DNA of 62,544 nt, counting the filler, from Jimgerdemannia flammicorona (lineage: Eukaryota): NCBI GenBank assembly GCA_003990765.1. It is 3 parts of 3 records of this genome, joined end to end, with 100 filler letters (N's around TTAATTAATTAA, not from the genome) between each part and the next. Parts side by side here need not be neighbours in the genome. Positions count along the whole stretch, not along the records: positions 41,773 to 62,544 come from RBNJ01001591.1; 2 more parts are not named here. One strand, given 5' to 3'. The first letter of the stretch is position 1; each line of letters starts with the position of its first letter. Shown here piece after piece: positions 5,701-60,429 of the stretch. The notes beneath the pieces were generated by a model. That model was not told the origin of the DNA. It saw only the letters and a list, made by a program, of their open reading frames with translations, and searched no databases. The translations under genes were made by a program, and so were the position numbers.

Positions 5701-5804
5701 GACCGATCTCTTCCTCTTGCAGGATATCAGGTGTAAAGATGATTTGGATAGACTGGAATGGATGAAGGAATGGGGAGATGAGGCAGTTTGGAAGAGAAAG
5801 GTTG
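2724..5804 (+). mobile_element. Host LINE: ORF1 C-terminal half (2724-3613 + 5431-5573) and start of ORF2 APE endonuclease (5606-5804), split by later insertions
   Basis: KEDLL..LEELSRVVEQWAKALKAF..EVVDGKWIQVDKGQWE matches ORF1 at 42078-43217 (EKEDLLEALEDLTGAVERRRLAWKEY..EIVEGKKIRMDRGTWE). The frame is continuous across the 3614-5430 insertion. 5606 MNRITNIFSLNINRL..IFTWLKE..DLFLLQD is an APE motif I/II pattern. Confidence 0.75.
3614..5414 (+). mobile_element. 5'-truncated L1/Tx1-like LINE (RT C-terminal half to poly(A)) with 16-bp TSD
   Basis: GVPQGDPLSPILYALSLEPL, AFADD, YLG and GGLG RT motifs; C-terminal CxxC..H..C; poly(A) 5404-5414; GAGGCCTGCCTGGAGT at both 3598-3613 and 5415-5430. Confidence 0.9.
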
Positions 5805-12660: not shown

Positions 12661-13302
12661 GTACTGAAGCACATCATGAGCAGAAGGATACTATATATTT
12701 TATCCAGAAATATATAATACTAAATATTGTGAAAAAAGGAATACTATGGATAACCAACAAGGAGATACTCAAGCAAAGGACAATCTAGTACAGTACAGCA
12801 AAACACATTTGAACAACTCCATTTCATGCCATCTGTATCATCTCCGCTGGATGATGACAGATGCTTCATATAGAACTTAGGAAAGCCGACAATGTCGAAA
12901 CCAGTCTAAGTCCATCTACATAACAGATATTGTTACTAGGAATTGCCTCGGATTATAAGAAAAGTCTATTTCCGAGAGGTTTGAACCCCCAGCCATAACA
13001 ATGGGAGCCCTCACCCTAGACAAGAATGGCCAGTCCTCACAAATGTGCCAACCAGACAAAAAAAAAGTGGACCAAGACCTGTTAACCCTGTGTAACCACA
13101 GCTATGAGTGATGATATCTTTGAAATCAGGATTTTTTCATGTGACCAGCACATTCCCTGCTTAAAGTACAGGTCACACACTTTGCCAGAAAGTATGACCA
13201 AAGGAAGGTTACACCAGAGAGGTGAATAAGTATAAATACCCAAGACAAGAATACCCTGCAACCCTCATTCCCCTCTCCTCACAAAGAAAAGATAAGATAA
13301 GA

Positions 13303-13757
13303 ATGCCCACTACCCACAGCCAAGCTACCCACTACCAAACTTCCTGCAGTAGCCAGCCCCTCCCAATCCAGGTTGACTGCCTCTTTGGACACATCCAGGT
13401 TGCTATCCAAGGAAGGAACCACTGCTCAGAGGCCCTTAACCTCTCCAGCCAGGACCTAGGACATTATGTCCTTAACTGCCATAAAGTCATTGAAAGAACC
13501 TACCTTACCACCAGCCGCCTAGAGATCTGACATAAATACAAGATTGGCCATCAACTCCTCCAACAGGCAAAGGACCTGCCCATGGACCAAATCTCTGATT
13601 GGACCCACCTGGACAGGAATGAGCAAAGACTTGGCAAGAAGGCCTATTGAATTATGTGCCATGCACTCTTTGCAATCCCCAACCTCAACTATGTCCAACT
13701 GAAAGACTTCCAGAATCTCTCTTTCTTCGAGGTTGACAAACTAGAAATCAAGGTAGC
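13303..13757 (+). pseudogene. A1 3' accessory ORF of unknown function, N-terminal half (cut by A2 insertion)
   Basis: Homologous to 14550-15380; ends at ..DKLEIKVA directly against the A2 LTR. Confidence 0.8.
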
Positions 13758-14538
13758 TGTAATAACTCTCACTTCTACCCCTCTCTTATCCTTTGGATAA
13801 TTAGAGAAGTAGACTATTACTTAGGGACTTAGTACACAATGTGTACCAAGAAGCCTTCAGTTTGAGGAAGCGCTCGCTTATAAGTAGTTGTAGTGGCAGT
13901 GCCTTATCTTTCAAAGGTCTTTCTAGTTTGCCTTCTGTTTCAAAGGTCTTTCTCTTGTGCCCTATTTCGAGGGTCTTGTTCTTTGCTGTGCACAGACTGA
14001 ATTCGCCTTGAAATTCAGGTTCAATGGGTTTACTTAAGTCTTTGGGGATTTATATACCAGTCTCAGTTCTGGCAGAAGTTAGCTAGGCTTCTGGAGTTTA
14101 GTCAGAAACACTAGAGTCACTTAGGTGTCATTACTAAGACTCAGGGGAATGTGTGTATATGGGGGAGACTTGATTCTTGTATCAAGGACTGAACTAAAAC
14201 TGCTTTATTTTGGATGGAAACTGGGGAGTATTTATACAAGTTGGTCCGCGATTTCTGACTAAGTATGAGTGACTAATTTGGTAACTATAATGAGGTTTGT
14301 GATTGTGACCTTTGTCAGGTGGTTTTTGGTAAAGAATATCTTTGTGATCAGGACCTCAATTACTAGGCAATGATCAGTAGCTGTGGCAACTGTTGCTGTG
14401 GCGCCGATTATTGGGGATAAGCTGGATATCATTTTTTCTGTGTCGTTTCACATCATTCGTTCGTTTGTATACCATGCTCGATCGTATGATGACATCATCG
14501 CCGGGTCACGTGATCACTTGTCATTCATATCTATTACA
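13758..14538 (-). repeat. 3' LTR of A2 (781 bp)
   Basis: TGTAATA/TATTACA termini, preceded by a PPT, and matches 5805-6597. Confidence 0.92.
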
Positions 14539-14549: not shown

Positions 14550-15380
14550 TTAGAAATCAATGTCCCCATTGATTGAGAAATTGAGAACCAGGGGAGAGAA
14601 AGGTGGGGCATCCTCCTCAGGGTTATTACCATCTTCTTCAGGGGCAGGGGGGGTGGTGGTTGCAGATGGCTTGCTGTCCAGGATGGAGAAGTCAATGAGA
14701 TCTGCAAATGGTTCTTGCATTGGAATAGGTGCTGGTGTAGGGGTTCTCCATCTGATGCGGTTGGGGCCATCCAAGTAGGGCTCTTGATCTTCATGCCTGG
14801 GAATATCCATTCAGATAGGTGGTCCTTCAAAGAGATCAGAGAGACCTTGGAGCCATTGGTCAGGGTTGTCATTCAGGAGGGGGCTCCAGTAGGGTTTGCA
14901 GTCAGTAGACTTGAGGGCAATCCAGGAGTTGGCTTCTTGAGCGACCTTGACTTCTAGGGCATCAATCTTAGGGAAAGAGAGGTTCTGGAAGTCCTTCAGT
15001 TATAAGTAGTTGAGGTTGGAGATCGCAAAGGGTGCATGGCGCATGATTTGATGGACCTTCTTGGCAAGTCTTTGCTCATACCTGTCTAGGTGGGTCCAAT
15101 CAGAGACTTGGTCCATGGGCAGGTCCTTCGTATGTTGGAGAAGCTGGTGACTGATTTCGTATTCATGCCAGATTTCTAGGTGGCTAGTAGCAAGGTAGGC
15201 CCTTTCGATAAGTTCACGGTGGTCAAGCACATACTGTCCTAGGTCCTGGCTGGAGAGGTTAAGGGCCTCTGAGCGGCGGTTCCTTCCTTGGATAGCAACC
15301 TGGATGTGTCCGAAGAGGCGGTCAACCTGGCTTGAGAGGGACTGGCTATGGTGGGCAGTTTGGTGGCAGGTGGCAGGCAT
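14550..15380 (-). pseudogene. A2 3' accessory ORF, ~276 codons, unknown function (two internal stops)
   Basis: ORFs 15000-15461 and 14550-14810 are in one frame; the stops TAA and TGA are compatible with CAA/CGA decay; the final stop abuts the PPT; homologous to the D LTR ORF. Confidence 0.8.
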
Positions 15381-20379: not shown

Positions 20380-20798
20380 ACTGGCTCACTCAGAAGATCA
20401 AGGAACAAGGTCTTCCCCAAGGATGTCCCCACTACTCATAGTGTTTTGCCCAAGTACAAAGAAGAGCCCGCAAAATCCTTGCTGCACAAGCTCCACAAAA
20501 TCAAGAATACAAGAAGGATAACCAAGATAGAAGAAATCCTACCAGGAGAAATGATCAAAGAAATGATCAAAGGAATGACCAAAAATTGTTCCAACTTCAG
20601 GAGTGTGTTCTTTGGTGCCTTCTTGGCTAGTAATCTGCTGCTACCAAGTTGTAATAACTCTCACTTCTACCCCTCTCTTATCCTTTGGATAATTAGGGAA
20701 GTGGACTATTACTTAGGGACTTAGTACACAATGTGTACCAAGAAGCCTTCAGTTTGAGGAAGCGCTCACTTATAAGTAGTTGTAGCAGCAGTGCCTTA

Positions 20799-20898
20799 NN
20801 NNNNNNNNNNNNNNNNNNNNNNNNNNNNNNNNNNNNNNNNNNTTAATTAATTAANNNNNNNNNNNNNNNNNNNNNNNNNNNNNNNNNNNNNNNNNNNN
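20799..20898. other. Artificial contig linker / gap
   Basis: N44-TTAATTAATTAA-N44, which gives stops in all six frames. Confidence 0.97.
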
Positions 20899-25760: not shown

Positions 25761-26126
25761 TCACTCAAATTCCCAGGCTTCTACAATTTGTATTTCCTTA
25801 TACTGTGAGATTTGTATCATTACATTCTTCCAATGTTGTCTGTTGACATATCCAAAGTCTCCTGGAGTTACTCCTTGGAAATGGGCTATGGCTGACTCAT
25901 CATCTTTGAATAACTTGTGCACTCTTTTTGCAATTGTGATCTGAATATAGGAGAGCTGACATTCTCTGATCCAGTCTTCTTTTCCCATCTTCGGTCTTGA
26001 ATTCAGTAGCTGTCCCAACTTGAAGTATTCCTGGAACTCAGTTTGGTTCTGGTAGGCCTTGAAATGTAAGATTCGTGATAAGTGTGTTTGCACTATACTC
26101 TGGATACTGTCAAAGGATTCTTCCAT
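25761..26126 (-). CDS. B1 3' accessory ORF, 121 aa, open; distant homologue of the A/D accessory protein
   Basis: QEYFKLGQLL..IAKRVHKLF..AIAHFQGVTPGDF aligns with QEYEIGNLL..TAKKIHQIF..LIPNLEYVRVSDF; located between integrase and PPT. Confidence 0.7.
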   Translation of the reverse strand: MEESFDSIQSIVQTHLSRILHFKAYQNQTEFQEYFKLGQLLNSRPKMGKEDWIRECQLSYIQITIAKRVHKLFKDDESAIAHFQGVTPGDFGYVNRQHWKNVMIQISQYKEIQIVEAWEFE

Positions 26127-26202
26127 TGTTGGTGGCTCAGTGGAACACCACTGTCTTTCAATGGCTCACTGGGCTGTACTAGTAATTCTGAGGGCAGTAG
26201 TA

Positions 26203-27405
26203 TTACTTTGTTGACTGGTCATAATACTTCTTGAGTTGGTTTCAGTAGATGGTAGTGGAGATGATTGTGCCTGAGAGTTTTTGTAGCCAAAAGGTGGTTC
26301 CTTTTATATCTTGCACAAGGTAAGGTCCTTCCCACTTGGGCTCCAGTTTTCATGATCATGAGGCTTCTACCATGTTCCAATACATCAGGACTTTGTCTCC
26401 TATCTTGATAATCTCCAGGAGTTTGTGGGTTTTTTCTGCATTCTTCCATTATAGTGCCTGTGCCTTCATTATGTAATCCTTAGCCTTCTTCCTGATTTGG
26501 TGTAGTCTCCGTATTTCTCCATCCACATATCTCCATATAGCATCTCCATTGGATGATAGGATTTCTCGAGAACTTTCTTCTCTGAACAGCATCTCCCAAG
26601 GGGTAAAGTGGGTACTTTGTGATCTGATATTCTGGAGAGCAGATAATGCTATTGGCAAATAGTGATCCCAGTTTTCATAGTTATCACAGATCTTGGCGAT
26701 AACATTCTTAAGGATCTTGTTGGTCTTTTCTGCTTGTCTGTTTCCTTGAGAGTGATAGGCTGTGGTCCAAATGTACTGGATCTTATACTTCTTGTAGAGA
26801 ATCTCAAAGAACTGGTTCATGAATTCTGTTCCTCTATCTGTAGTTACTTGCATTGGGGTCTTGAACCAGCAGATGATTTCTTTGTGGAAGAAATCAGCGA
26901 TTGACTGTACATTGGCTTCCTTGAGGGGTCCTGCTTCTATCTACTTTATAAAAAGGTCTACAATGACAATGATATATCGGTTACCAGTCAGGGTCAAGGG
27001 TAGAGGGCTGATTACATCCATTGCTATGTGGGCAAATGGTACTGGTTCTATATGTACTGATCCTGGGGCTTGGTTTTGTTGGTCTTATTTCTGTTTCTGG
27101 TATTTGTTGCAGGTTCTAACAAATTGTCTGATATCTTTATCCATTCCTGGCCACCATATCATTCTTCTTGTCTTGTTGTATGTATTTATTCCTCCTAGAT
27201 GACCGAGTTCATATACTGATTTCATTGCTTGCTCCTTCTTGTGTTCTGGTATGACTAGTAGTTTTCCTTTCTTCAGTATTTGTCCATCAGTTTTGAATTG
27301 TTTCCATGTTCTGTTAATAATCATTTGTGTCTATTCTTCCAGATATTGGAGCATCTTTTGCTGTCTCAGATATATGATGATTTCATAGTAAAGTTCCTTA
27401 TTCAT
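26203..27405 (-). pseudogene. B1 integrase in its own reading frame (MNKELYY...; decayed HHCC, DDE core, GPY tail)
   Basis: The ATG at 27405 overlaps the RNase H-frame stop (CATGAATAA); TDRGTEF and KWEGPY motifs. Confidence 0.85.
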
Positions 27406-36384: not shown

Positions 36385-37898
36385 TGTCATGTAGTGGTCG
36401 CTGAGTCCTTCAAATATGCCAGATTCTCTTCAAGATACATATATCTCTTAGACTAACTCAAGTTTGTTATAAGCAAGTTCTTATTGGAGTACCTTCCCAA
36501 GGTCTTATAGTCCTCAAACTTCTTATCTTTAACTGTCTTGTTATCTCTTAGATTGCTTGCAAGAAAGTGTGTATAAGTGAAACTGGAACTTGACTGACTT
36601 TATTCCAGAGGAAATAAGAGAGGTATTTATACAAAATATAATTCAATGGTTGCTAAGATATAAAGCTAAATATAAATTTCAATAACTAAAACTACTAAGT
36701 TCCAGGGCTGGTATTATTTAGTATTACATCAAAATGCCAGTGCTGGAACAATTTTGTGTCACCTCAGAATACTGGTGCTGGCATTATCCAGTATAACAAA
36801 GAACTTAGAGTAGAAAGTTCAGGACCATGGGAGCTTCATCATCATCATCACTGAAGGAGATGAGGTCCATGAATTCGTTGTGCAGGCCGCATGTCTCATG
36901 TACTTCGTTGTCATGTGTTTCATATACTTCGTGTGCTTTGGGTATGTCACACGGGATGATGTCATCAATGACATCATCACATTCAGCTGTGGCGGGGAAA
37001 TTGGGAACAAGGTCTGAAGCTCTCCAGTCTATGAGGTTCTCTTCCACAAAATAAGAAACAAATGTGGTATCTTGGGGAGATCTAACCTGGATGCTTGGGC
37101 CTTGGAATACTGAGATCAATCCTTGCAGGAATTGGTCTGGGTTGTCCTGAAGGATAGGGTGCCAGAAGTCTTCTACTTCTTCACTATTGAGGGTGATGAT
37201 AGACTGGGCTTCTGTGGCTACTCTGGCTTTTAGTGCATTGATACGGCAGGATGACAGATCTCTGAAGTCTGAGACTCTAACATACTCCAAGTTGGAGATC
37301 GACTATGGTGTATGTCTGAAGATCTGATGGATCTTCTTTGCTGTCCTTGCCTTATGTAGGTCCATGGGAGTGGCATCTTGTAGCTCTTGAGGGCTGGCCT
37401 GTGGGAACTCCTGGCAGAGGAGGTTTCCTATTTCGTATTCCTACCACATTTGAAGGCATTCAGTAGCAATGGTGATCCTTGTTTCCATTTTGCAGTGGTA
37501 GAGAATGAAGTGATAGGGGTCTGTGGTACCTAGGTTGACAATAGGAGTCCTTCTTGAGTGGGTCCTCATGGCTCTTCTGATGTCTTGGAACATCCTTTTC
37601 TCGACCGAGATACCTTGATGATTCCTTGACCTTGAGGTTTGGCAGACAGCAGGCATTTTGTTTATAGTAAGTCTTTGAGCTATTTTGGGATTGGTAGTTC
37701 TTATTGGTTACTGCTACTGCAGTTCCTTGATCCTTTTTTTATATTCTTCAGGATGCTCATGCTGTAGTCACAATGACTCACAGTTGGTCATCATTGCTCA
37801 TCTTATATGCTATATGATCTTCTTGTACTCCGATCTGGTGGCTTGTAAAGAAAGGCTGTCTCCTATACTAATGTCATCATTCTGGGGTCACCATTATA
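36385..37898 (-). mobile_element. Solo LTR of family D (1514 bp) with 4-bp TSD TTAT
   Basis: Reverse complement of 50188-51658 from end to end; TTAT at 36381-36384 and 37899-37902; no PBS or PPT adjacent. Confidence 0.92.
36805..37656 (-). pseudogene. LTR-encoded accessory ORF in solo LTR (~283 codons, internal stops)
   Basis: ORF pieces 37441-37656 and 36805-37290 are in one frame and match 50429-51250. Confidence 0.8.
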
Positions 37899-41672: not shown

Positions 41673-41772
41673 NNNNNNNNNNNNNNNNNNNNNNNNNNNN
41701 NNNNNNNNNNNNNNNNTTAATTAATTAANNNNNNNNNNNNNNNNNNNNNNNNNNNNNNNNNNNNNNNNNNNN
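41673..41772. other. Artificial contig linker / gap
   Basis: N44-TTAATTAATTAA-N44. Confidence 0.97.
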
Positions 41773-43311
41773 GGGTCCACCAATGCGATCCTCCTTCCCG
41801 ACTCATCCCACTCCTCCTCCAGGACATCAAGAAGCTCCTCCTCACCTCCGACACCTCCCGGTACCCCATACTGCGGCTGTACTTCGACGCTCATCTCAGC
41901 GTCCTCCACCACACCGCCCTGCCCTCCTTCCCCACGGACCTCTTGGGCCACCCTTTGATCCACTCTGGGCTCTCCAGCCCAGTCACTTTCCCTCGATCCT
42001 ACTCCACTTCCTCCCACTCCACCCCCCACTGCGCCTCCTCCCAATTTCTCCAGCAGCTCCTTCTGAATACGCCTCCCCTACATCTTCTCCCAAGTTCCTC
42101 GATCCATCCTGATCTTCTTCCCTTCTACAATTTCCACCACCGTCTTGGCCTCATACTCCTTCCAAGCCAACCGTCTCCTCTCGACAGCTCCCGTCAGATC
42201 CTCAAGAGCCTCCAGCAAATCCTCCTTTTCCTCCAGCATTCCTTTCACCCGAGAGACCCTGCACTCAACTGGTCCCCATTTCAGTGTCGCCGGCCAGTCC
42301 CTCGCCTTCCCCATGTTCTCCTGACCAAATAAGCGTACTCTTACATCAACGTCTCCAGTCCTAAGTTCCGTACCCTCCCAGACTTTGAACCCGATATCGA
42401 TGACATCCCCATACTCCTTGACCACCTCTACAATCAACTCCCTAGCCCTCTCCCGCGACACTGTAGGAAGATCCAGCACCGTCAACTGCACCACTCTTGG
42501 GTCCCAGCGCATGCACCTCGCCATAGGAACTACCACTCCACCCACTACTACCCCTTTCTCTATAGCCTCCAGCATCGACACCTCTTCTTCAAACCCAACC
42601 TCAATCCCTTCCTTCCCCTTCATGAACTTGACCGTAGTTGCCCCCTTCACCTCCTGCGCCACCAGCCCCAGAATCATTCTCGCAGTCACTGCCAAGCCTC
42701 GGAAATACAATGTGACCACGAATTCTGACCTCGACTTTTTGAGTAATGGTGCTGACACCATGCCTATCACTCCATCAGCCAGGTCCCCGGGCCTCGTGCC
42801 CTCCTTCTGTCCGGATCTGCCAACCACCGTCACATCTGGATTTTTTTCCAGATTCCCTGTCACAGCCCCATCAACAGTCACATCTCCAACCCCTACTCCC
42901 CCTCCCCCCATACTGATTGAGGCTCCCATGGGGGATCCTCCCTGCCCTCCTGCTGAACCCGGCATCGCCTTCCCCAGTCCCAACCAACCATCCAGCCCTG
43001 TGGCCATCTTCCCCATCCTGACCTTGTCAGCAAAGGTCGCCCTCCCCCCACCTCTCTGCCTCAGTCCACCTCTCCCTCCACCTCCAGCGCCACTGCCCAC
43101 CACAGACGGCCCTGGCATTCCCAACCCATCTCCTCGTTTCCTCCCAACCTGCTGCCAGTCGAAGGCACGGCTGCCCCCCTGGCCAACCTGCCCACCAGTT
43201 TGCTCATTGCTCACCATGTTGATAGTAGCTTTTCACCAAAAACTTCGCAGAAAGTATTGTCCAAATCTTGTGTCACCTGAATGTTACCAAAGGAAGTTGT
43301 CATCAAAACTT
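41773..43311 (-). mobile_element. 5' end of an L1/Tx1-like LINE: short 5'UTR and ORF1 (ATG 43217; open 379 aa, continuing past one TAG)
   Basis: Homologous to the ORF1 that precedes the APE ORF at 2724-5804; Gly/RGG-rich N-terminus; abuts a B-type LTR fragment. Confidence 0.75.
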
Positions 43312-43475
43312 TAACATCTGTAAAATCTCAACATTTGTGAATATTTTAACATTTGTTAAAGTTGAAATATGACTGCTATTTAGAAGGCTATACTATATTT
43401 GGGAATCAGATTCAGATACTGCAATCAAATATCTATTTTTCTGATTCATGTTACTAATTTGGATCAACCATTACA
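43312..43475 (-). repeat. 5' part of a B-related LTR, cut by the LINE
   Basis: Matches 25610-25719 (GGGAATCAGATTCAGATAC..TTACTAATTTGGATC..ACA terminus). Confidence 0.75.
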
Positions 43476-43869
43476 ATATATAAGCAGATATATTTGCCTA
43501 TATTTAGTTTATATAGAATCTATATATATTATAAAGTATAAATTGTAGTATTTTACTCCAAAATTTTATAGAATATTTACCTATAATTAAGATTATAAAA
43601 TATATACTTATACTATAAGTATATATAGTATAGAGTGAGATATTTTATACTAAATATTTTTATAAATAAATTTATCTATATATACTATAGGATAAAGGAT
43701 AAGAACTATATATATAAAACTATATAGTTATTAGTAATCTATATATTTATTTTTAATAAATATATAGTTAAAGATATTTATAAGAGTAAAAATCTACTAA
43801 AACAGTTTTATTACTAGATATATAGCTGATTAATATAAAGATAGTAAGAAAACAAAAATAAAATATACT

Positions 43870-44340
43870 GTGATATATAGTATGAAATAGAAATAAGAAT
43901 TAGGAGAATAGATATTTGATTATAGTATTTAAATCTGATTTCCTAATTTATTATAATATAGAAATTATATTTACTATAGATACTATATCTAAAATATTAA
44001 GAGTGAAACTCTTGTTACTTTTGCAAAATTTAGATAGGATTTTATATGAGATTCTACCTGAGATATAAATAGAAATTTCACATAAAAAGACTTATTACTT
44101 AACTACATATTTAGTAGCAGAATTAGTATACAAACTTATATAAATATCCCCAGTATCTAGAGTGAATAAACCTTAGATCAAACCAGTTCAATTCAAAAAA
44201 TCTTCTTTACATATGTGTATCCTTCTTCTCTATTTCAAAATCCTATCAACTTACTAAGTTCTATATCTACTATATTACAACTTAATATCTATTAGCTGGT
44301 GATTTAAGATGAATTCTTACTTTTAAGCTAAAAAACAAAC
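43870..44340 (+). repeat. Decayed B-related LTR plus PBS/leader; second copy of its first ~300 bp at ~45750-46060
   Basis: GAGTGAATAAACC.CAGAT motif as in B LTRs; 44280-44335 is a decayed form of the B/D leader; 43900-44190 matches 45770-46060. Confidence 0.6.
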
Positions 44341-49940: not shown

Positions 49941-50428
49941 ACATATGATAAAATCAGTCTTTAACTGTATTTGTGACTATTACCTGTATGTGGCAGAATA
50001 CCCCCTTCTACATGACGTCAATTTCAATTTGGATTCTTGAGAACTGTTCGCTTATATTTATTATATAAAATAAACCCATCTCATACTCATTTTAGACATT
50101 TGATTTACACATATTATTTTGAGATTAATAACTTGATACAGTTAATATAAAGAAAATATAATTAGTATAGATAAAATCATTATATATTGTAATGGTGACC
50201 CCAGAATGATGACATCAGCACAGAAGATGGCCTTTTCTTGCAAGCCACCAGATTGGAACACAAGAAGATCATACAGCATATGAGATGAGCAATGATAACC
50301 AACTTGAGTCATTGTGATCACAGTACAAGTATCCTGAAGAATATAAAAGAAGGATCAAGGAACTGCAGTAGCAGCAACCAATAAGAACCACTAATCCCAA
50401 AATAGCTCAAAGACTTACCACAAATGAA

Positions 50429-51250
50429 ATGCCTGCTGCTTGCCAAACCTCAAGGTCAAGGAACCACCAAGGTATCTCAGTCAAAGAAAGGATGTTCCAA
50501 GACATCAGAAGAGCCACGAGGACCCACTCAAGAAGGACTCCTAGTATCAACCTGAATACTGCAGACCTCTATCACTTTATCCTCTACCACCATGAAATAG
50601 AAACAAGGATCACCATTGCTACTGAATACCTCTAAATGTAGCAGAAGTATGAAATAGGAAACCTCCTCTGCTGGGAGTTCCCACAGGCCAGCACTCAAGA
50701 GCTACAAGATGCCACTCCTATAGATATATGTGAAATAAGGACAGCTAAGAAGATCCATTAGATCTTCAGACATGCACCATGGTTGATCCCCAACTTGGAG
50801 TATATTAGAGTCTCAGATTTCAGAGACCCATCATCCTGCCATATTAATGCACTAGAAGCCAGAGTGGCTACAGAAGCCCAGTCTACTATCACCCTCAATA
50901 GTGATGAAGTAGAAGACTTCTGGCACCCTATCCTTCAGGACAACCCAGACCAATTCCTACAAGAGTTGATCTCAGTATTCTAAGACCCAAGCATCCGGAT
51001 TAGATCTTCCCAAGACCCCACATTTGTCTCCTATTTTGTAGAAGAGAATCTCATAGACTGGAGAGCTCCAGATCTTATTCTCGATTTTTCTGCTGCCGAA
51101 CGTGATGACATCATTGACAATGATGTTGTCCTGTGCAATATTGAAGTATGCGAAATATGTGACCTATATGACAAATTTACAGATCTCATCTCCTTCAGTG
51201 ATGATGATGATGAGGATAAAGCCCCCATGGTCCTAAACTTTCTGCTCTAA
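50429..51250 (+). pseudogene. LTR-encoded accessory ORF, 273 codons, 5' LTR copy
   Basis: One frame from ATG to TAA, broken only by stops; TATAAAAG ~85 nt upstream. Confidence 0.8.
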
Positions 51251-51784
51251 GTTCTTTGTTATACTGGATAATGCCAGCATCAGTATTCTGATATGATACT
51301 GAATTATACCAGCATCCTGAACCTGTACAATCATCAGTACTGACCCTGGAACTTAGTAGTTTTAGTTATTGAAATTTATATTTAGCTTTATATCTTAGCA
51401 ATCATTAAATTATATTTTATATAAATACCCCTCTTATTTCCTCTGAAATAAAGTCAGTCTTCTCAGTACAATATACACACTTCCTTACAAGCAATCTAAG
51501 AGATAACAAGACAGTTAAAAATAAGAAGTTTGAGGACTATAAGATCTTGAAAAGGCACTCCAATAAGAACTTGCTTATAACAAACTTGAGTTAGTCTAAG
51601 AGATATATCTTGAAGAGAATCTGGCATATTTGAAGGACTCAGCGACCACTATGTGACAACTTGGTACCCATTGGCTGGTAATTCAAGATGAATCTCTCAC
51701 TTTCAAGCTAAAAAATGAATAACCCCCACAACAACTACCCTGACTACAAGAGTCACCCCTGCAATAATTCAAGATAAGATAGAA

Positions 51785-54700
51785 ATGCATTCCCCCACAT
51801 TCTATAGATATACTACTGAAGAGTCAATCCTGACCTTCATTGAAGACTTTGAACAATTCGCCACCATACGAGCCCTTGGTGTGGATGCTCAATTGGCCCT
51901 TCTACCAGTCAGTCTCAGAGGACCTGCTAGAGACAAGTTCAATATAGCCACCATTGCTGATGCTGGTGCAGCCAAACTTACCAACATGAAGGCCTTCTTC
52001 AGAACAACATATTATACCAAAGAGATCAAGCAAGCTCTCAAGGATCAACTCAATACTATCTGTCAGAGACTTAGTGAAGATCCCAACTCATTCTATACCC
52101 AAATCTGCCACCAGATTATCTTGGCTAGCTATGATGATCACCTCAAGGAACAAATAGCAGATTCAACTTTCCTCAAAAGAGTTCACCCTGAAATTGCCCT
52201 AGCAATCTGGTCTACCCCAGCTACACTGACCCTTGATCAGAAAGTGGTCTTTGCATAGAGATATTAGACTGCCAGACACCCTGCCAAACACTCAATGGAG
52301 AAAATAACTGGCATCAAGATGGAGCCATTAAAGCCAACTAGTATCTTACCTACTACAGTTGTAAACAGACAACCAACACCACCTACCCCCAAGACAGCCA
52401 AAGCTGACCCAGTGGAAGAACTCGCCAAGCAGTTCACTAAGATGACTACATACCTTGGTGATGTTGTTAGAGAGGTCTGAAGCACCAACAGGAGACCAGT
52501 GTAGAGATATGCAACTGCTACAAAAGAATGCAATATCGCATGCTTCAGATGTGGAGAAGAAGGCCACTATGCAAAGAATTGCATGACCAAAACAAGATGC
52601 AAAGCCCAACCAAGCAATGCTAACAGAACTAGAGAACAAACCAATACAGTAGTCATTGAGGAGATTGGTTTCACTGATGATGAAGAATACTATGAGGAGC
52701 TTGAATTCTACTCTGCTACTGAAGGTACTAGAACCTGGTCCAAGCCCTATGACAAGAAGAGCAATAGCAAGCTAGTTGGAAGACCAAAGAAGACCCTAGC
52801 TATCACTATTCAAAGCAAGACCCAACTCGAGGAGATTGATCAAGACATGGAGTTAGATGAAGCTACCTGCCAAATCATTGAAGGCACTACTCCAGTCTCA
52901 GGAGAAAGTGAAAGCAAGAAGAAACAGAAGCTGTGCAAGATCAAGATCCACCAGTATGACATCTACAAGGATCTCAAGGAATAAAAGGTCAATGCTACCT
53001 TTGGACAACTAGCCGAAGTCCCTGCCTTCAGATAGCAGTTGAGAGTAGGACTTACAACTACTACCAAGAATCAAGAGTACAAGATTGTAGAAGCTCACAA
53101 TGTACAGGAAGAATCTGAGAACTCAAGTGAAGAATCCAAAGACCAGCACAAGACATCAGCCTATATCTCATGTCAGATCAAAGACTATATCTTTGATGCC
53201 ATCATTGATACCAGTACTGGAGGATGTCTCATGAGCAAGAAGGCAATTGACCACCTAGGTTGAGATATTGAAGAGTCCACCAAGATGGTCTATATTATAG
53301 CAGATGGTATACAAGCTACCCCCCTTAGCAAAATCCAAGAAGTCCCCATCAAGATAGGAGAAGCTACCATCTCAGTAGATATAATTGTTACAAGTGCCAC
53401 CAACTATGATATCCTCATTAGCAATCAATGGCTTCACAAGGCCAAGGCCATCATTGACCTCAATGCCCAGAAGATGCAGATCAACTATAGAGGAAGAAAG
53501 GTACAAGTCTCTATCAATGTCTATAAAGGAGTTCTACCAGACATAGAGGAAGGAGATGAAGAAGATACAGAGGTCTTCATGTACTTAGTGAACAAGAACA
53601 AGAACAAGACACCTAAGCTCACAGATGAGCTGTGGTACAACAAGATCATCGATGGCTATACCCCTCAAGGAAGATGCCCCCATGATACTAGGATGTACTA
53701 CTCTGAACACCTGAATGACTGCTGGTCCTGTATCAGTGAAGTCAGGAAAATCTGCCAACAGAAACACAAGCAAGAAACTGCTGAAGCAAAAAGGAAAGCT
53801 GAAGAAGATGACCAGCCCCCAGAGCTCCAAGCTGACAGTGATAATGAGGAGAAACAAGAATCAGACATCACTCTCAAGGTCAAGAAGTTTCACCCCAAAG
53901 CCAAGATCCCAGAATATAAGACTGAAGGAGCCATAGGAATGGACCTTGCCAGTATTCAAGATGCTACCCTCGAACCACAGACCACTACTCTACTTGGCAC
54001 TGGAATTGGAGTCAAGCTGCCAGAGAACCCTGCCAGAATTATCAAGACCAGGAGCAGTCTGGCCAAAAGTGAAATCTCAGTTGAAGGAGGAGTAATTGAT
54101 CCTGATTACACTAGTGAGATCTTCCTCATAGTCAGAAATCACAACCACACCACCCCCTTTGAAGTCAAGAAGTATGACAGGATTGGCCAGATGCTGATCC
54201 ATGAAATCAAGAAGCCCAAGATCATTAAAGCCATCAAACTCATCAAGACCAAGAGAGGAGAACAAGGCTTTGGATCTACTGGAAGAGAAGTCTATACTAC
54301 TACCAATATTACCAAACTCAAGCACAAGAAAGACAAGGACCAGAACAAGCACACATATACCATTGGAGAAAACTTTCCTCTGGAGGAACAACTTCTCAAA
54401 ATCCTGTACTAGAATGAAGAAGTACTTGCTATGGACTTCAGGGATATCCACAATCAAGAACCCAAGTACTACCATGAAGTTGACACTGGCAATATCAAGT
54501 CCATCTACCAGAAAGCCAGACCCATACCGTCTGCCTACAGAGAGTGGCTGTGAGCAGAGCTCAAGGAAATGGAAGAAGCCAGGATCATCAAGCAAGCTAT
54601 CAGCCCCTAGGCCTCACTCATTGTCCTTGCTTTGAAGAAAGGAAGCAAGCCAGGAGAGTTTGCACCAAGACTCCACATTGACTACAGGAAGCTCAATGCT

Positions 54701-55793
54701 ATCACCAAGAAGGATAGGCAGCCCTTACCAAATATTCAAGAAATCCTTACTATTCTTGGAAGTGAAGCCAAATACTACACCACCTTGAATCTGTTCTCAG
54801 GCTTCTATCAGATTGATCTCACTCAAGATGCCAGTGAGAAATCAGCCTTCATCATACCTGATGCCACCTATATCTACCTATAAATGCCATTTAGAATGTG
54901 CAATACCCCAGCAAGTTTCCAGCAAATGATGAACAGAGTCTTTAGCAATGAGATTGGAAAATGGCTCTTTGTCTATGTTGATGATGTGATCATCTTCAGC
55001 AACACTGCACAGGAACATGTCAATTATATACAGCTAGCCCTCAAGAGGCTCAAGGAGCATGGCCTCTATATTAAGCCCAAAAAATATAAGTTTGTAGCTC
55101 AAGAAATCACCTACCTAGGACACCTCATCAATCAGACTGGAATCCACACAGACTCCATAAAGATCAAGGCTGTTGTAGTCTACCCAAGACCCAGAACAAC
55201 TACAGAAGTCCATGCCTTCCTTGGACTGACCAGTTACTACAGAAGATTCATCAAAGAATACTCCACCATTGCAGCACCTATCTATGAGCTACTGAAGAAG
55301 GAAACCAAATTCGAATGGACCAAGGAGCACCCAGAAACCTTCAATGAACTCAAGACCAGGTTGACTCAAGCACCTATCCTCAGAAGACCAGACTGGAATC
55401 TAGAATTCATCCTGCAGACAGATGCGAGTACTATAGAACTTAGAGTAGTCCTAGCTCAGAAGAAAGATGGACATGAATATGTCATCTCCTATACAAGCCA
55501 AGGTACCTGTAGAGCAGAACACTTGCAAGCTTAAATACTTAGCAGTAGTCTGAATAGTAGACAAGTTCCACTACTACCTAGCTGGGAAACACTTCACTAT
55601 TCAAACAGACCACTCTGCTCTCACCTGGCTATTCCACACTCTGAACCCCAAAGGAATATATGTCAGATGGATCTACAGGCTGCAAGAATATAGCTGTACT
55701 GTTAAGCACTGCTCAGGAAAGACCAACACCAATGTCAATGCACTCTCAAGGATACTCTGAAACACCCTCATTAAGACTATTCAACATGAATAA
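51785..55793 (+). pseudogene. D gag-CCHC-PR-Cys/His module(53633-53731)-dUTPase(~53870-54283)-RT-RH
   Basis: CFRCGEEGHYAKNC; IIDTSTG; GAIGMDL, TRSSL, GGVIDPDY, DRIGQ, RGEQGFGST; YVDD; TDAS; small copy-specific deletion near 55520. Confidence 0.92.
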
Positions 55794-56931
55794 AGAGCTA
55801 TACTATGGATTAATCAGCTACCTTGGGCAGCAGAAGATGCCCAACCACCTCGAACCCTGGATAATCAATATCATTAACCAGACTTGGAAACAGTTTGAAC
55901 TAGACAATACTACACTCAGAAAAGAAGGAAAGCTGGTAATACCTGAATACAAGAAGTATCAAGTAATGAAGGAAGTATACAAGCAAGAATACTTAGGAGG
56001 AACCAACATATATAACAAAGCAAGAAGAACTATGTGGTGGCCCAAGATGAAAGAAGACCTATGCCAATTTATTAAAGGGTGATCAAGAATTGAGCCTATC
56101 CCCTTCCACCACATTGCAATGAATATCATTGGACCACTACCAGTAATACTATCAGGAAACTGTTATATTATAGTTATTATAGACCTCTTCACCAAATGGA
56201 TAGAGGCAGGAGCATTACAAGAAGCCAATGCCCTCTCTATAGCCGACTTCCTGTACCGAGAAATCATCTACTGCTACAAGACACCAAAGCAAATCACAAC
56301 AGACTATAGAATAGAATTTGTCAATATATTCCATAAGATAATATATCAGAAATACAAGATCCAGTACATCAAGACCACTGTGTACTACCCTCAAGGAAAT
56401 AGACAGACAGAGAGAACCAACAAGACTCTCAAGAACATCTTAGCAAAGATCTCAGAGATATATGAGAATTGGGATAACTATCTCCCAACTGCCCTCTCTG
56501 TCCTATGAGACATATAGTCACAGAGCACACACTTTACCCCAAGAGAGCTACTCTTCAGAGAAGAAGATTCTGATGGAACCTCAGCCATGAATCTAGACCT
56601 AACTTGGAGATGGGTTGATGCAGAAATCCAGAGACTATACCAAATCAGGAAGAAGGCTGAAGATTATATCACCAAGTTACAAGCACTGACAAGGAAGAAT
56701 GTAGAAAAGAATTACAAGGCCCTAGAACCCATCTGAATTGGAGAAAAGGTTCTACTGTATCGAAATATGGTAGAAGCCTCATGGTCATGAAAACTGGAGC
56801 CCAAATAGGAAGGACCCTTCTATATGCAAGATATCAAGGAAACTACCTTCTGGCTTAGAAAAATCTCAGGGACCATACTGCCTACTATGGTACATAAGAA
56901 CAGACTTAAGAAGTACTACAAACCTATATAA
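55786..56931 (+). pseudogene. D integrase in its own reading frame
   Basis: ATG at 55786 within CATGAATAA; MNKELYY..; IDLFTKWIEA; K*EGPF tail; no chromodomain. Confidence 0.85.
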
Positions 56932-57537
56932 GAGAAGCAAAATATAATGACTGCCCATGAGGTTCTAGTCTATGAATCATAACAGCATGTCCCATGACTA
57001 GTAGGCTATCTGTCTGGACCATTCTCTAAGAGATACAGCACTGGCAACTACTCATCTATGAGACTTTCAAAGTCAGAGGAGTTCAAACCATCAACTGATT
57101 GGTCAAGATCAGAATCAGGCCCTTGCTCTATATGAAGAGAGTGACCCTTCACCATCATGCCAAAATACAAAGAGAAGATGCCAGCCCATAAATATCACTT
57201 TTTGACCCCTTGCCAGAGGTTATGAGATCAGCAAATTTTTCAGGACTGGACTAATGAATAAGGATGCTCAGGAAGATCCTTATTCAGGAGGAAGATGTAA
57301 TGGTGATTCCAGAATAATGACATCAGCATAGGAGATGACCTTTCCTTGCAAGCCACCAGATCAGAACACAAGAAGATCATATGGCATATGAGATGAGCAA
57401 TGATGACCAACTGTGAGTTATTGTGACCATAGTACAAGTATCCTAAAGAATATAAAAGAAGAATCAAGGAACCACAGTAGTAGTAACCAACAAGAACCAC
57501 CAATCCCAAAATAGCTCAAAGACTTACCACAAATGAA

Positions 57538-58359
57538 ATGTCTACTGCCCACCAAACCTCAAGGTCAAGGAACTACCAAGGTATCTTAGTTGAAGAAAGG
57601 ATATTCCAAGACATCAGAAGAGTCATGAGAACTTACTCAAGAAGGACTCCTAGTGTCAACCTGGGTACTGTAGACTCCTATCACTTTATCCTCTATTACT
57701 ATGAAATGGAAATAAGGATCACTATTGCTACCAAATGCCTCCAAATATGGCAGGAGTATGAAATAGAAAACCTCCTCTGTCGGGAGTTCCCACAGGCCAG
57801 CACTCAAGAGCTATAAGATGCCACTTCTATGGATATACATGAAATAAGGACAGCTAAGAAGATCCATCAGATCTTCAGGTATGCACCATGGTTGATCCCC
57901 AACTTGGAGTATGTTAGAGTCTCAGATTTCAGAGACCTGTTATTCCATCATATTAATGCACTAGAAGTCAGGGTGGCTACAGAAGCCCAGTCCACTATCA
58001 CCCTCAATAGTGATGAAGTAGAAGACTTCTGGTACCCTATCCTCCAGGACAACCTAGACCAATTTCTGCAAGAGTTGATCTCAGTATTCCAAGGCCCAAG
58101 CATCTGAATTAGATCTCCCCAAGACCCCACATTTGTCTTCTATTTTGTAGAAGAGAACCTCATAGACTAGAGAGCTCCAGATCTTATTTCTGATTTCCCC
58201 ACCACTGAATGTGATGATGTCATCACCGATGATGTCATCCTGCGCAACATCAAAGTATGTGAAATGCATGACCTATATGACAAATTTGCAGATCTCATCT
58301 CCTTCAGTGATGATGATGACAAGGATGAAGCCCCCATAGTCCTGAACTTTCTACTCTAA
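57538..58359 (+). pseudogene. LTR-encoded accessory ORF, 273 codons, 3' LTR copy
   Basis: Same length and frame as 50429-51250; its stops fall at different codons from those in the other copies. Confidence 0.8.
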
Positions 58360-58370
58360 GTTCTTTATTA

Positions 58371-58470
58371 TACTGGATAATGCCAGCACTAGTATTCTCA
58401 TGTAATACTGGATAATGCCAGCACTGGTATTCTCATGTAATACTGGATAATGTCAGCACTGGTATTCTGA
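58371..58470 (+). repeat. 35-bp tandem repeat (about three copies) in the 3' LTR of D
   Basis: TACTGGATAATGCCAGCACTRGTATTCTCATGTAA at 58371, 58406 and 58441; single copy in the 5' LTR. Confidence 0.85.
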
Positions 58471-60429
58471 TATGACACTAAATTATACCAGCATCCTGAA
58501 CCTATACAACCATTAGTACCAACCATGGAACTTAGTAGTTTTAGTTATTAGAATTTATATTTAGCTTTATATCTTAGCAACCATTGAATTATATTTTATA
58601 TAAATACCCCTCTTATTTTCTCTGAAATAAAGTCAGTCTTCTCAGTGCAATATATACACTTCCTTGCAAGCAATCTAAGAGATAACAAGACAGTTAAAAA
58701 TAAGAAGTTTGAGGACTATAAGACTTTAGGAAGGTACTCCAATGAGAACTTGCTTATAACAAACTTGAGTTAGTCTAAGAGATATATCTTAAAGAGAATC
58801 TGGTGTATTTGAAGAACTCAGTGACCACTACGTGACAATATGCAATTATATATAATAATAAAGATAATTGATATATTGAGCTATATGTATACTTCTGAAA
58901 TCTAAGCTACATATTTATTTATCCTTGAACTGAGCTATCAGACTCTCATAATACTCTTCTTATATAACTATTATTGTTCAGCTTACTAGCAATACTAATG
59001 TGATGAGAAAATTTAAGAGTTATTTAATATTATTATATCAGAGCAAGTAGAAGAGCTTATGTATAGATATTTGTTAAAAAGTGAGCAAAGATACAGAAAT
59101 TATCATGAAATATTTCAAATCACTGTAAAGTATCTCTTTTTCCATACCGAACTCTTTCTCCAAATAGTCTCAAGCAAGAATCCACCTCTCTCTATATGTA
59201 CAATCTCACTCCATACAGCTATTAGTATCACAATTGCCTTATTGCTCCATCACTCCAATCACTGTAGATGTACTATTTTAAACTGTACAAATGGAGCTTT
59301 GAAGAGAAAAAATGATGTACAAAAAGTAACCACCTTGCCACATATGCTTCAATTTTATGAGGTTTTTCATTTCCAACCTCATTAATAGATGTTGAGCAGG
59401 GCCCGTTGGATCAGATAAATATATATATTGAGTTTCTGTTAGCAGAGGTACAGTCAGAGGGTCGCTTCATCTAGATGAGATGACGCAACCATGTTGATGA
59501 AATACGAAATACGTTTTAGACGAAAAACATTAGAGATCTTCTATGGCAATAGCTGGGAAAACCCCAGAAGCTCACGAAACTCTCTTTCTGACTGCTAGTG
59601 GAGCATCCGTCTGCCACACACGAACCCCGTACGCAACGTCAAGCGCCAATATCTGGGTATTCTCCACCCTTCCCCCCCATACAAATCCCGTCCTCCCACT
59701 AGGGCGTTGTGGATATCTTCTTGATGACAGGTATGTCACTCCAAGACAAATCATCCTCCGCTGCCAACCCAGAATCCTCTGGTGCACGACGAACCTAATA
59801 GATTTCAAGGTACGAACATAAGTAAAGACCTGGAGAGCAGTAAAGATAATTCCCACGTTTCATATTGTGCTTGTCGAGGGTGTTTGCTGGGTTGTTGCTG
59901 GTTTCCATGACGTCGTTTGGTTGAGTACAGTGATGAAAACATTGAACATCACGAGCCAAAACAAGGTGAATGCTTGGGTCGCACGATGGGTAGCAGATCG
60001 AGGTAGATAAGCAGCCATAGATTTGAGTTTCAGTGAGCCGTGGCTGTAGATTATGCGACAATGCCAAAGGATGGCAGTGTATATGTCAAAATAACATCTG
60101 ATAGGCATGGAGTCACCTTTCCTGAAACTCTACTGTACTGCACCAAAACTCCTGAAGGCATCGTCATACCTCCAACCCCCATGCAATTCTGACCAATTCG
60201 TTTGAAACCAATCACTTATCTCTTCATCCCCCAAGCATGTCGTTGCTCAGATCACTGAATGGCCCCATCGGAAACTCGGGCCGTCTCAAACGTATGAGAC
60301 GCACGACACCGCATGGCACATTCTCGCTGCAGGACCACCTTCAGTCAATGACACATAGCAAGAGTTTGTGCGTTTTCCCACGACAATGAAAGATGGGTTG
60401 CGTGCAGACGGATAGGTATTTCTACAGAA

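What the first reader, a model, noticed from the sequence alone, without database searches (positions are those of the whole stretch)
50188..58837. A ~273-codon unknown gene inside the LTR of a Ty3/gypsy family, spread even by solo LTRs
Seen in sequence: both ~1.5-kb LTRs of element D and the TSD-flanked solo LTR (36385-37898) contain the same ATG-to-stop frame. It is broken only by transition-type stops that mostly differ between copies, so the ancestor was open. It has its own TATAAAAG ~85 nt upstream and ends before the second TATA box (TATAAATACCCC, ~51420), which places it in U3. Established knowledge: U3-encoded genes are known from retroviruses (MMTV sag, HIV nef overlap) but are not a standard Ty3/gypsy feature. 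Inference: this is a self-contained expression cassette that survives LTR-LTR recombination and could act in trans, for example as an anti-silencing or host-interaction factor in a genome that heavily mutates repeats.
Basis: partly seen in the sequence, partly recalled or inferred. Interest (0 to 1): 0.88.

Follow-up and report, generated by a model that had tools for sequence, protein, structure and literature searches.

The report
Conserved accessory gene inside a retrotransposon LTR
A family of Ty3/gypsy retrotransposons carries a real, once-selected 273-283 codon gene of unknown fold wholly inside its long terminal repeat, and sister families in the same window keep the same gene in the ordinary place just before the 3' repeat.

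Summary
Both LTRs of element D and the solo LTR (minus strand, 4-bp duplication) carry one 273-283 codon frame. Its 9 stops are all private to one copy; the other five frames have 9-26 shared stops. In four public runs, nearly all contig depth reads a sense base at the four stops of the 5' copy.

The frame is a gene. All 4 indels inside it are multiples of three, against 0 of 6 outside. pN/pS is 0.41-0.44 in frame and 0.99-1.43 in shifted frames. Intact relatives of 271, 323 and 342 aa exist. It is an orphan: 5 hits among 1.84 billion representatives, no Pfam family, no fold match.

The main revision concerns origin. The gene is not an LTR invention. Homologues sit in elements A/B and C between pol and the polypurine tract, the usual accessory-ORF place. 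Family D has it downstream of the tract, inside U3.

Expression from its own TATA box, and any function, remain inferred. I favour a soluble regulatory adaptor with an acidic tail. The window copies are dead.

The parts
50188..51659 (+). 5' LTR of element D (TGT...ACA ends), 1472 nt
   Evidence: Alignment with the 3' LTR and the solo LTR and blastn self-comparison. In all 4 runs laid, contigs that end at 50188 continue upstream into a polypurine tract (table 7).
50341..50348 (+). TATA box 1 (TATAAAAG), candidate promoter of the LTR gene
   Evidence: Read. The same GAATATAAAAG lies 65 nt before the ATG in metagenome contig L001. A TATAAATA lies about 70 nt before the ATG of the homologue in element B. 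Promoter activity is inferred.
50429..51250 (+). LTR gene, 5' LTR copy: 273 codons plus stop, 4 private stops (codons 69, 71, 111, 185)
51420..51459 (+). TATA box 2 (TATAAATA), 18 nt, AATAAA (51447-51452), then TCAGTC (51454-51459): inferred genomic promoter, poly(A) signal and start site, so that R is short
   Evidence: The same module with the same spacing is in the LTRs of A/B and C and in L001. Its function is inferred from position and conservation.
51662..51680 (+). Putative primer binding site (TTGGTACC...)
   Evidence: Element A has ACTTGGTAGCAG directly after its 5' LTR. No tRNA match was tested.
51719..56930 (+). Degraded gag-pol of D: zf-CCHC, protease, dUTPase, RT, RNase H, integrase
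   Evidence: Pfam hits on stop-to-stop ORFs. The end of pol was read.
57286..57295 (+). Polypurine tract AGGAGGAAGA directly before the 3' LTR
   Evidence: Homologous to CAGGAGAAAGA before the 3' LTR of element C.
57296..58837 (+). 3' LTR of element D, with a 70-nt tandem expansion after the gene
57538..58359 (+). LTR gene, 3' LTR copy: 273 codons plus stop, 3 private stops
36385..37898 (-). Solo LTR of the D family, 4-bp duplication ATAA
36805..37656 (-). LTR gene, solo-LTR copy: 283 codons plus stop, 2 private stops
14550..15380 (-). Homologous gene (ORF3) of element B, INTERNAL: 276 codons, 2 stops. TATAAATA at 15452-15445. Stop followed by polypurine tract 14549-14539, and the 3' LTR starts at 14538.
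   Evidence: tblastn 62% to P0016, HMM hit 4.3e-79, sequence read, translation.
13758..14538 (-). 3' LTR of element B (781 nt), without the gene
   Evidence: It matches the 5' LTR of A, 5805-6597.
13303..13758 (+). Truncated ORF3 of element A, cut where B's LTR ends
25761..26219 (-). Short ORF3 of element C (153 aa in intact relatives; the window copy has one stop, then 121 aa). Internal, followed by a polypurine tract and the LTR start at 25712.
   Evidence: hhalign to the long family gave probability 87%, E 3.8e-6.

Best explanation
The frame is a genuine protein-coding accessory gene, here called ORF3. It belongs to a small clade of dUTPase-bearing Ty3/gypsy elements, of which at least family A/B is a chromovirus.

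In families A/B and C the gene sits where accessory ORFs usually sit: between pol and the polypurine tract, with a TATA box in front. In family D the tract lies upstream of the cassette. Reverse transcription therefore copies the cassette as part of U3 into both LTRs, and it stays behind in solo LTRs.

Inferred workings. TATA box 1 starts a roughly 1.1-kb mRNA. It is polyadenylated at the LTR's own AATAAA, which lies between TATA box 2 and the inferred genomic start site. On this reading one LTR is a complete transcription unit.

The protein is soluble. It has a helical core of about 170 residues and a variable, strongly acidic, disordered tail that carries repeated D-L-(I/V)-x-F motifs and ends in a conserved (V/I/T)-L-N-F motif. 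My best guess is a trans-acting regulatory adaptor of the element: a transcriptional activator or an antagonist of host silencing.

The three D-family copies in the window are dead and decaying by transitions.

Odds:
- Real selected gene: 0.95.
- Lies in U3 in family D: 0.85.
- The internal position is ancestral: 0.7.
- Has its own promoter: 0.55.
- Activator or anti-silencing function: 0.3.
For: SHOWN: it is coding.
- 0 shared and 9 private stops in this frame, against 9-26 shared stops in the other five frames.
- 4 of 4 indels in the frame are multiples of 3, against 0 of 6 in the rest of the LTR.
- pN/pS against contig L001 is 0.41-0.44 in frame and 0.99-1.43 in shifted frames. Between the solo LTR and D it is 0.32-0.36 against 0.65-1.0. 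Between the two LTRs of D it is 0.55 against 0.45 and 0.78, as expected for neutral decay after insertion.
- Jukes-Cantor corrected dN/dS against L001 is 0.16-0.20.
- Intact relatives exist: P0002 271 aa, P0008 and P0010 323 aa, P0018 342 aa.
- Four runs read sense bases at the four stop positions of the 5' copy.

SHOWN: position.
- D's polypurine tract and LTR start lie upstream of the gene. The same junction is in contigs of all 4 runs.
- The solo LTR with its own duplication contains the gene.
- In B the stop is followed at once by GGGGGGAAGGA and the LTR start TGTAATAG. In C the short homologue is followed by CAGGAGAAAGA and TGTGACAG.
- Homology of C's form: hhalign probability 87%, E 3.8e-6. 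It has 10 intact relatives.

SHOWN: polarity clue. D's internal region is 66.6% identical in DNA to C's over 5.4 kb. It gave no blastn match to A/B.

INFERRED: regulatory signals.
- The TATA-18 nt-AATAAA-TCAG module is conserved in the LTRs of D, A/B and C and in L001.
- A TATA box lies 65-88 nt before the ATG in D, L001 and B.

Protein features.
- No membrane segment: the highest Kyte-Doolittle mean over 19 residues is at most 1.05.
- Tail charge is -11 to -27 in 7 of 7 sequences examined.
- The AlphaFold2 model has mean pLDDT 58 and pTM 0.52, with a helical core and a tail below 50.
Against: - No transcript evidence of any kind; see Tried and rejected. Promoter, poly(A) site and the U3/R/U5 limits rest on motifs and spacing alone.
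- TATA-like words are common in DNA of about 40% G+C.
- The TATA-to-TCAG spacing (A at +37 from the first T) is longer than the textbook 30 or so.
- B has a good pyrimidine tract plus AG just before its ATG, so a spliced message from the LTR promoter is a live alternative.
- The basic N-terminus (+5 to +8) holds only in two subfamilies. It is +1 to +2 in B and P0018 and -1 in P0019.
- No fold or family match supports any function.
- The head of D's LTR shows no significant similarity to the LTR heads of B or C (z 1.1-2.4), so how the cassette came to lie in the LTR is unknown.
- Polarity rests on three families in one window, without a tree.
- The host is not identified.
Confidence: 0.72

Rival explanations
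1. The gene is real, but it is expressed only from a spliced subgenomic RNA that starts at the normal LTR promoter, as for retroviral env, nef and part of sag. The upstream TATA box is then incidental. The copy in the 5' LTR and those in solo LTRs are silent passengers.
For: U3 of the 3' LTR is part of the genomic transcript, so no separate promoter is needed. B has a pyrimidine tract plus AG directly before its ATG. In bdelloid elements ORF3s are said to be expressed from spliced messages (PMC5408684, passage seen).
Against: A TATA box lies at 65-88 nt before the ATG in three diverged subfamilies whose flanks otherwise no longer align. The acceptor-like sequence is weak in D and L001.
Confidence: 0.3
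2. The genomic RNA starts at TATA box 1. The gene then lies in a very long R (about 1.1 kb) and is the first ORF of the full-length RNA, not a U3 gene.
For: TATA box 1 is a good TATA box. Nothing measured fixes the start site.
Against: The shorter LTRs of A/B (781-793 nt) and C (about 461 nt) contain only the TATA box 2 module, which must serve as their promoter and poly(A) signal. D keeps that module with identical spacing. In A/B and C the gene with its TATA box lies outside the LTR.
Confidence: 0.08
3. It is a transduced host gene fragment, or a diverged piece of gag, pol or env.
For: LTR elements do capture host sequence (PMC7264820, abstract passage seen).
Against: The profile search of 1,835,955,588 representatives gave only 5 proteins, all short and all of this family. 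There is no Pfam family, hhalign to gag gave probability 0.2, and there is no membrane segment. The gene is present at the equivalent 3' position in three element families. That is the mark of a conserved accessory ORF rather than of a one-off capture.
Confidence: 0.04
4. It is an open frame without coding function, produced by chance or by base composition.
For: The LTR is A-rich on this strand, and three copies are a small sample.
Against: See, and the intact relatives at 40-56% identity to P0002 (alignment A9).
Confidence: 0.01

Closest known systems
MMTV sag (superantigen ORF in the U3 of the betaretrovirus LTR)
   Same: An ORF of similar size lies wholly within a long (1.3-1.5 kb) LTR, upstream of the genomic promoter, and so is present in both LTRs. 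The position of sag is recalled. [quoted passage not shown]
   Different: Sag is a type II membrane glycoprotein of a vertebrate retrovirus (recalled). This protein has no hydrophobic segment and gave no match to anything outside its own family in the sequence and family searches; it was never compared with Sag directly. The element is a Ty3/gypsy retrotransposon without env.
Lentiviral nef and spumaviral bel2/bet, accessory genes that run across the polypurine tract into U3
   Same: These are 3' accessory genes whose position relative to the polypurine tract decides how much of them is duplicated in the LTR. The A/B and C versus D contrast is the same variable taken to its two ends. The retroviral layout is recalled.
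   Different: Those genes overlap U3 only in part and have no promoter of their own inside U3.
Foamy virus Tas with its internal promoter
   Same: A protein of about 300 aa encoded 3' of pol/env, with an internal promoter in front and an acidic C-terminal activation region. These properties of Tas are recalled. It is the closest model for how ORF3 may work.
   Different: No match to any solved or predicted viral structure, or to any family, came up; whether Tas is held in those libraries was not checked. DNA binding and transactivation are untested.
Sense additional ORFs between pol and the 3' LTR of LTR retrotransposons, and Grande gene23 with its own promoter
   Same: The ORF3 of A/B and C fits the class exactly. 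[quoted passage not shown]
   Different: The phrases 'within the LTR', 'in the LTR' and 'inside the LTR' occur 0 times in that review. gene23 is antisense. The plant ORFs are unrelated in sequence as far as Pfam can tell.
Fungal chromoviruses with dUTPase and an 'add. ORF' (PosPlaTy3, Tmt1, Phanerochaete elements)
   Same: A chromodomain integrase (element B) and a dUTPase whose place in Pol varies between families, as in PMC2864245 (passages seen). That paper's figure legend lists additional ORFs of unknown function.
   Different: I could not see the figure or those sequences, so whether any of those ORFs is this family is open. None is described there as lying in the LTR.

Membership tests
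Ty3/gypsy (Metaviridae) LTR retrotransposon | Two LTRs with TG...CA ends and a short target-site duplication | tested here: met
   TGT...ACA ends. 4-bp duplications ATAT (D) and ATAA (solo LTR).
Ty3/gypsy (Metaviridae) LTR retrotransposon | gag with a zinc knuckle; pol order protease, RT, RNase H, integrase | tested here: met
   zf-CCHC, RVP_2, (dUTPase), RVT_1, RT_RNaseH_2, Integrase_H2C2 and rve, in that order along 52505-56508.
Ty3/gypsy (Metaviridae) LTR retrotransposon | Primer binding site after the 5' LTR and polypurine tract before the 3' LTR | tested here: met
   The tract AGGAGGAAGA is at 57286-57295. A TGG-containing site lies 2-3 nt after the 5' LTR. The tRNA was not identified.
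Chromovirus | Chromodomain at the C-terminus of integrase | tested here: inconclusive
   Met for element B (Chromo 1.3e-12). No hit in D's degraded integrase tail (56518-56858).
Sense additional ORF between pol and the 3' LTR | Conserved ORF in most copies, in sense, located between pol and the polypurine tract | tested here: not met
   Met for B and C. For D the gene lies downstream of the tract, inside the LTR. D is a positional variant of the class.
U3-encoded retroviral gene (sag type) | ORF wholly inside U3 | tested here: inconclusive
   The ORF is wholly inside the LTR and 170 nt upstream of the conserved TATA/AATAAA module. The U3/R border is inferred, not measured.
U3-encoded retroviral gene (sag type) | Type II membrane glycoprotein related to Sag | tested here: not met
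   No hydrophobic segment and no Pfam hit.
Retroviral or errantiviral env | Signal peptide, membrane anchor, fusion protein fold | tested here: not met
   The highest 19-residue hydropathy is 1.05 or less in 7 of 7 sequences examined. The fold was not found; see Tried and rejected.
Tas-like transactivator with an internal promoter | Promoter directly upstream of the accessory gene | not testable with these tools
   A TATA box lies 65-88 nt before the ATG in D, L001 and B. Activity is unknown.
Tas-like transactivator with an internal promoter | Acidic C-terminal activation region; DNA-binding core | tested here: inconclusive
   An acidic tail with hydrophobic motifs is present in all subfamilies. 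No DNA-binding fold was recognised.

The most novel reading that the evidence does not exclude
In family D each LTR, including every solo LTR left by recombination, is a complete gene: own promoter, ORF, and the LTR's poly(A) signal. It encodes a trans-acting factor that benefits the whole family, for example an activator of the LTR promoter or an antagonist of the host's repeat silencing. Solo LTRs would then be a dispersed, recombination-proof reservoir of a shared accessory protein. That layout has not, to my knowledge, been described for Ty3/gypsy elements. Moving the gene across the polypurine tract would have been the adaptive step.
Probability: 0.15. Interest if true: 0.85.

Novelty: new variant of a known kind. 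Interest (0 to 1): 0.62.

Why it matters
Accessory ORFs of LTR retrotransposons are common but mostly without known function. A gene lying wholly in the LTR is textbook only for MMTV-type retroviruses.

This window holds a natural comparison. The same orphan gene lies before the polypurine tract in two families and after it in a third. That shows how a small shift of the plus-strand priming site doubles the gene's dosage and leaves a copy at every solo LTR.

If the cassette is transcribed on its own, solo LTRs cannot be treated as mere promoter relics in this lineage. The protein family, with clear conserved motifs and intact members in public metagenome and assembly records (JGI, ENA), is a tractable entry to what such accessory proteins do.

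Tried and rejected
Own genome. None is held, so copies could not be counted genome-wide.

Earlier notes of this scan. Nothing by place, sequence or words.

RNA evidence. No RNA holder was listed. All four runs laid are contigs, so they give no transcript starts or ends.

Family and fold searches.
- Pfam on the three window copies, first in a wrong register for two of them, then corrected: 0 families.
- Pfam on all 19 aligned members: only scattered hits at E 0.026 or weaker.
- PHROGs: one hit at E 0.093.
- PDB sequence profile search: best E 0.61, spectrin.
- ESM Atlas: best feature score 0.83, below the level that means anything. Its own model has pLDDT 0.35.
- First AlphaFold2 run with 10 sequences: pLDDT 34, unusable.
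- Second run with 19 sequences: pLDDT 58. With that model, Foldseek against PDB gave 0 matches at E 0.001 or better, BFVD gave 0, and VIA-align wide gave a best Z of 4.1. The model is only of middling confidence, so no known fold is excluded.

Related DNA.
- Metagenome scan: 1 locus of 317 candidate stretches.
- Viral contigs: 0 of 223.

Host identity.
- Rfam and tRNA scans of the window found nothing.
- The pol search gave 3 hits at 35% identity, without names.
- The Atlas on PR-dUTPase gave no usable taxa.
- Pfam on 20 further ORFs found only retroelement domains.

LTR heads. I considered that the first 35 nt or so of D's LTR are homologous to the head of B's LTR. A shuffle test gave z 1.5-2.4, so I dropped the claim.

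Arginine-rich RNA-binding N-terminus (Rev-like). The charge is not conserved across subfamilies, so I dropped it.

Literature. Searches, with the phrases 'ORF within the LTR', 'LTR-encoded', 'ORF in the LTR', 'ORF in the U3', 'ORF within U3', 'LTR ORF', 'LTRs encode' and 'ORF inside the LTR', returned MMTV papers and generic uses only. This is not proof that no such case is in print. Subscription journals are not searched, and the supplements of PMC2864245 were not opened.
Full report
1. WHAT IS THERE

Element D is a degraded Ty3/gypsy element.
- The 5' LTR is 50188-51659 and the 3' LTR is 57296-58837. They are 88-92% identical.
- Between them lie a gag zinc knuckle, protease, dUTPase, RT, RNase H and integrase.
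- A polypurine tract (57286-57295) stands directly before the 3' LTR.
- The flanks carry a 4-bp duplication, ATAT.
- The third LTR copy, 36385-37898, lies on the minus strand. It aligned poorly as given and well when reversed. It has its own 4-bp duplication, ATAA.

- Its coordinates are 50429-51250, 57538-58359 and 37656-36805(-).
- The frame from the first ATG is full of shared stops.

2. IS IT MORE THAN CHANCE?

The three copies carry 4, 3 and 2 stops, and none is shared.
- Eight of the 9 are a single transition away from the codon in both other copies.
- Over the same span the other five frames have 9-26 stops shared by at least two copies; this frame has none.
- In 2000 shuffles of the solo LTR the longest open run was 188 codons, against 273-283 here.
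- All four indel events inside the frame are 3, 3, 6 or 36 nt long. The six in the rest of the LTR are 1, 2, 2, 4, 4 and 70 nt.

Contigs of four public runs from three studies were laid on the 5' LTR. They are soil metagenomes and a coded organism.
- They cover it with hundreds of short pieces.
- At all four stop positions of that copy they read the sense base in nearly all of their depth (table 3).
- The stops are therefore private decay of the window copies.

3. IS IT A GENE?

A word-indexed search found five clusters of intact proteins on contigs of 0.5-2.4 kb.
- One cluster holds a full-length 271-aa protein, P0002. By tblastn it is 66-68% identical to the window copies (68-73% in the alignments).
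- A second subfamily has 323 aa.

A profile search of all 1.84 billion representatives added a third subfamily (P0016, and P0018 with 342 aa) and a distant fourth (P0019). In all it found only five proteins.

One relative could be read as DNA: contig L001. Nei-Gojobori counts gave the following.

Pair | pN/pS in frame | pN/pS in the two shifted frames
Window copies vs L001 | 0.41-0.44 (0.16-0.20 after correction; dS is near saturation) | 0.99-1.43
Solo LTR vs D | 0.32-0.36 | 0.65-1.0
Two LTRs of D | 0.55 | 0.45 and 0.78

- The two LTRs of D have diverged only since insertion, so no frame effect is what neutral decay predicts.
- Outside the frame, L001 and D no longer align, except at the two TATA boxes.
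- The gene was under purifying selection while the families diverged, and it is dead in this window.

4. WHERE THE GENE NORMALLY LIVES

Searching the family against the window found two more homologues, at 15380-14550(-) and 13303-13758(+).

Element B (family A/B).
- A and B are two copies of another family lying tail to tail.
- Family A/B is a chromovirus with dUTPase before the protease.
- In B the gene has 276 codons and 2 stops.
- A TATAAATA lies about 70 nt before its ATG.
- Its stop is followed at once by the tract GGGGGGAAGGA and by TGTAATAG, the start of a 781-nt LTR.
- That LTR equals A's 5' LTR, 5805-6597. In this family the gene is therefore internal.

Element C.
- C is the closest relative of D in the window: 66.6% DNA identity over 5.4 kb.
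- It has a short ORF at the same spot, followed by CAGGAGAAAGA and the LTR start.
- That tract matches D's AGGAGGAAGA.
- The short ORF has 10 intact relatives.
- It aligns to the N-terminal half of the long family at hhalign probability 87%, E 3.8e-6.
- D itself shows no relic of the gene between pol and its tract.

The gene is thus a clade-wide accessory ORF. What is special in D is that the polypurine tract, and hence the LTR boundary, lies upstream of it. Both the sister family and the more distant family have the internal position, so I take the U3 position as derived. This is an inference; no tree was built. The LTR heads gave no significant similarity, so the rearrangement that did this is unknown.

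5. SIGNALS AND LIKELY EXPRESSION (INFERRED)

All LTRs of the clade share a module with fixed spacing: TATAAATA, 18 nt, AATAAA, then TCAG 2-3 nt later.
- The plain reading is promoter, poly(A) signal and start site, with a short R. This is the arrangement recalled from retroviruses with short R.
- In D the gene ends 170 nt before this module. It therefore lies in U3.

A second TATA box lies 88 nt (D), 65 nt (L001) and about 70 nt (B) before the ATG.
- If it works, an RNA of about 1.1 kb would start there and end at the LTR's own poly(A) signal.
- One LTR would then be a complete transcription unit.
- The alternative is a spliced message from the genomic promoter. B has a good acceptor-like sequence before its ATG.

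6. THE PROTEIN

It belongs to no Pfam family and has no PDB relative. It is unrelated to the element's gag and has no membrane segment.
- With 19 sequences AlphaFold2 gives a helical core at pLDDT 60-90 and a disordered tail.
- No structural match stands out.
- Conserved blocks are W-x-E-Y-E-I, A-K-K-x-H-Q-I-F-R-H-x-P, W-N-P-x-L-x-D-N-P-D-Q and F-x-G-P-x-I.
- The tail is 47-126 residues long, with net charge -11 to -27. It carries repeated D-L-(I/V)-x-F motifs and, except in P0019, a conserved (V/I/T)-L-N-F near the end.

A soluble helical domain with a multivalent acidic-hydrophobic tail is the make-up of transcriptional activators and of adaptors that recruit host factors. I therefore favour a trans-acting regulator of the element at about 0.3. 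This rests on composition alone.

7. COMPARISON WITH WHAT IS KNOWN

- Sense accessory ORFs between pol and the 3' LTR are well known. One of them, Grande gene23, has its own promoter and encodes a nuclear protein (PMC7264820, passages).
- Bdelloid and fungal dUTPase-bearing elements carry varied or unknown extra ORFs (PMC5408684 and PMC2864245, passages).
- A gene wholly inside the LTR is known to me from MMTV. My phrase searches returned only MMTV-type papers.
- Family D is thus a new positional variant of a known kind, carrying an orphan protein family.

8. THE HOST

The host is not identified. Three things fit a soil fungus, but this is inference:
- soil metagenome holders;
- the chromodomain together with a dUTPase whose position varies;
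- a background G+C of 24-31%.

9. VERDICT

Expression and function remain open.

Noticed in passing
window 18446-20026(-), 53264-54412(+), 28319-29335(-): The dUTPase domain sits before the protease in family A/B (dUTPase, protease, RT) but after it in families C and D (protease, dUTPase, RT). A variable dUTPase position is reported for fungal chromoviruses (PMC2864245, passage seen).
   Followed up: partly
window 8305-13758(+) and 20380-14940(-): Two A/B-family copies lie tail to tail, 90% identical over 5456 nt. A's ORF3 is cut at 13758, exactly where B's 3' LTR ends. Around 8108-8313 and 20377-20582 there is an extra direct match that suggests a local inversion or an assembly problem.
   Followed up: partly
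window 51420-51459; 14245-14195(-); 6143-6195; 25473-25430(-); L001 1221-1260: A module of TATAAATA, 18 nt, AATAAA, then TCAG 2-3 nt later, with fixed spacing, is shared by the LTRs of all three families and by the metagenome contig. The poly(A) signal lies between the TATA box and the likely start site, which implies a very short R.
   Followed up: partly
window 50188-51659, 57296-58837, 36385-37898: Differences among the three LTR copies are 275 transitions to 37 transversions. C-to-T changes are frequent at CpA (41 of 127 sites), CpC (42 of 111) and CpG (9 of 10) but rare at CpT (8 of 101). Only 10 CpG remain (polarised only by majority of three, so rough). This looks like a repeat-directed or methylation-linked deamination signature.
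   Followed up: partly
window 58385-58455: The 3' LTR of D has a 70-nt tandem expansion just after the gene's stop, a unit of about 35 nt repeated. It is absent from the 5' LTR and the solo LTR.
   Followed up: no
window 1-6000 and 42000-44000: There are stretches with extreme GC skew: +0.28 to +0.48 at 1-6 kb, which holds an RT fragment at 3582-4118, and -0.40 at 42-44 kb. The latter has long overlapping ORFs on both strands (42078-43232 minus, 42325-43314 plus) without any Pfam family.
   Followed up: no
window 20799-20898 and 41673-41772: Two pairs of 44-base N runs, both inside retroelement sequence. The first hides the point where B's 5' LTR should continue, so that LTR could not be checked for the gene.
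   Followed up: no
window 25761-26219(-): Element C's short ORF3 has 10 intact relatives of 83-153 aa on short public contigs. A truncated form of the accessory gene, the N-terminal half only, is therefore itself conserved.
   Followed up: partly
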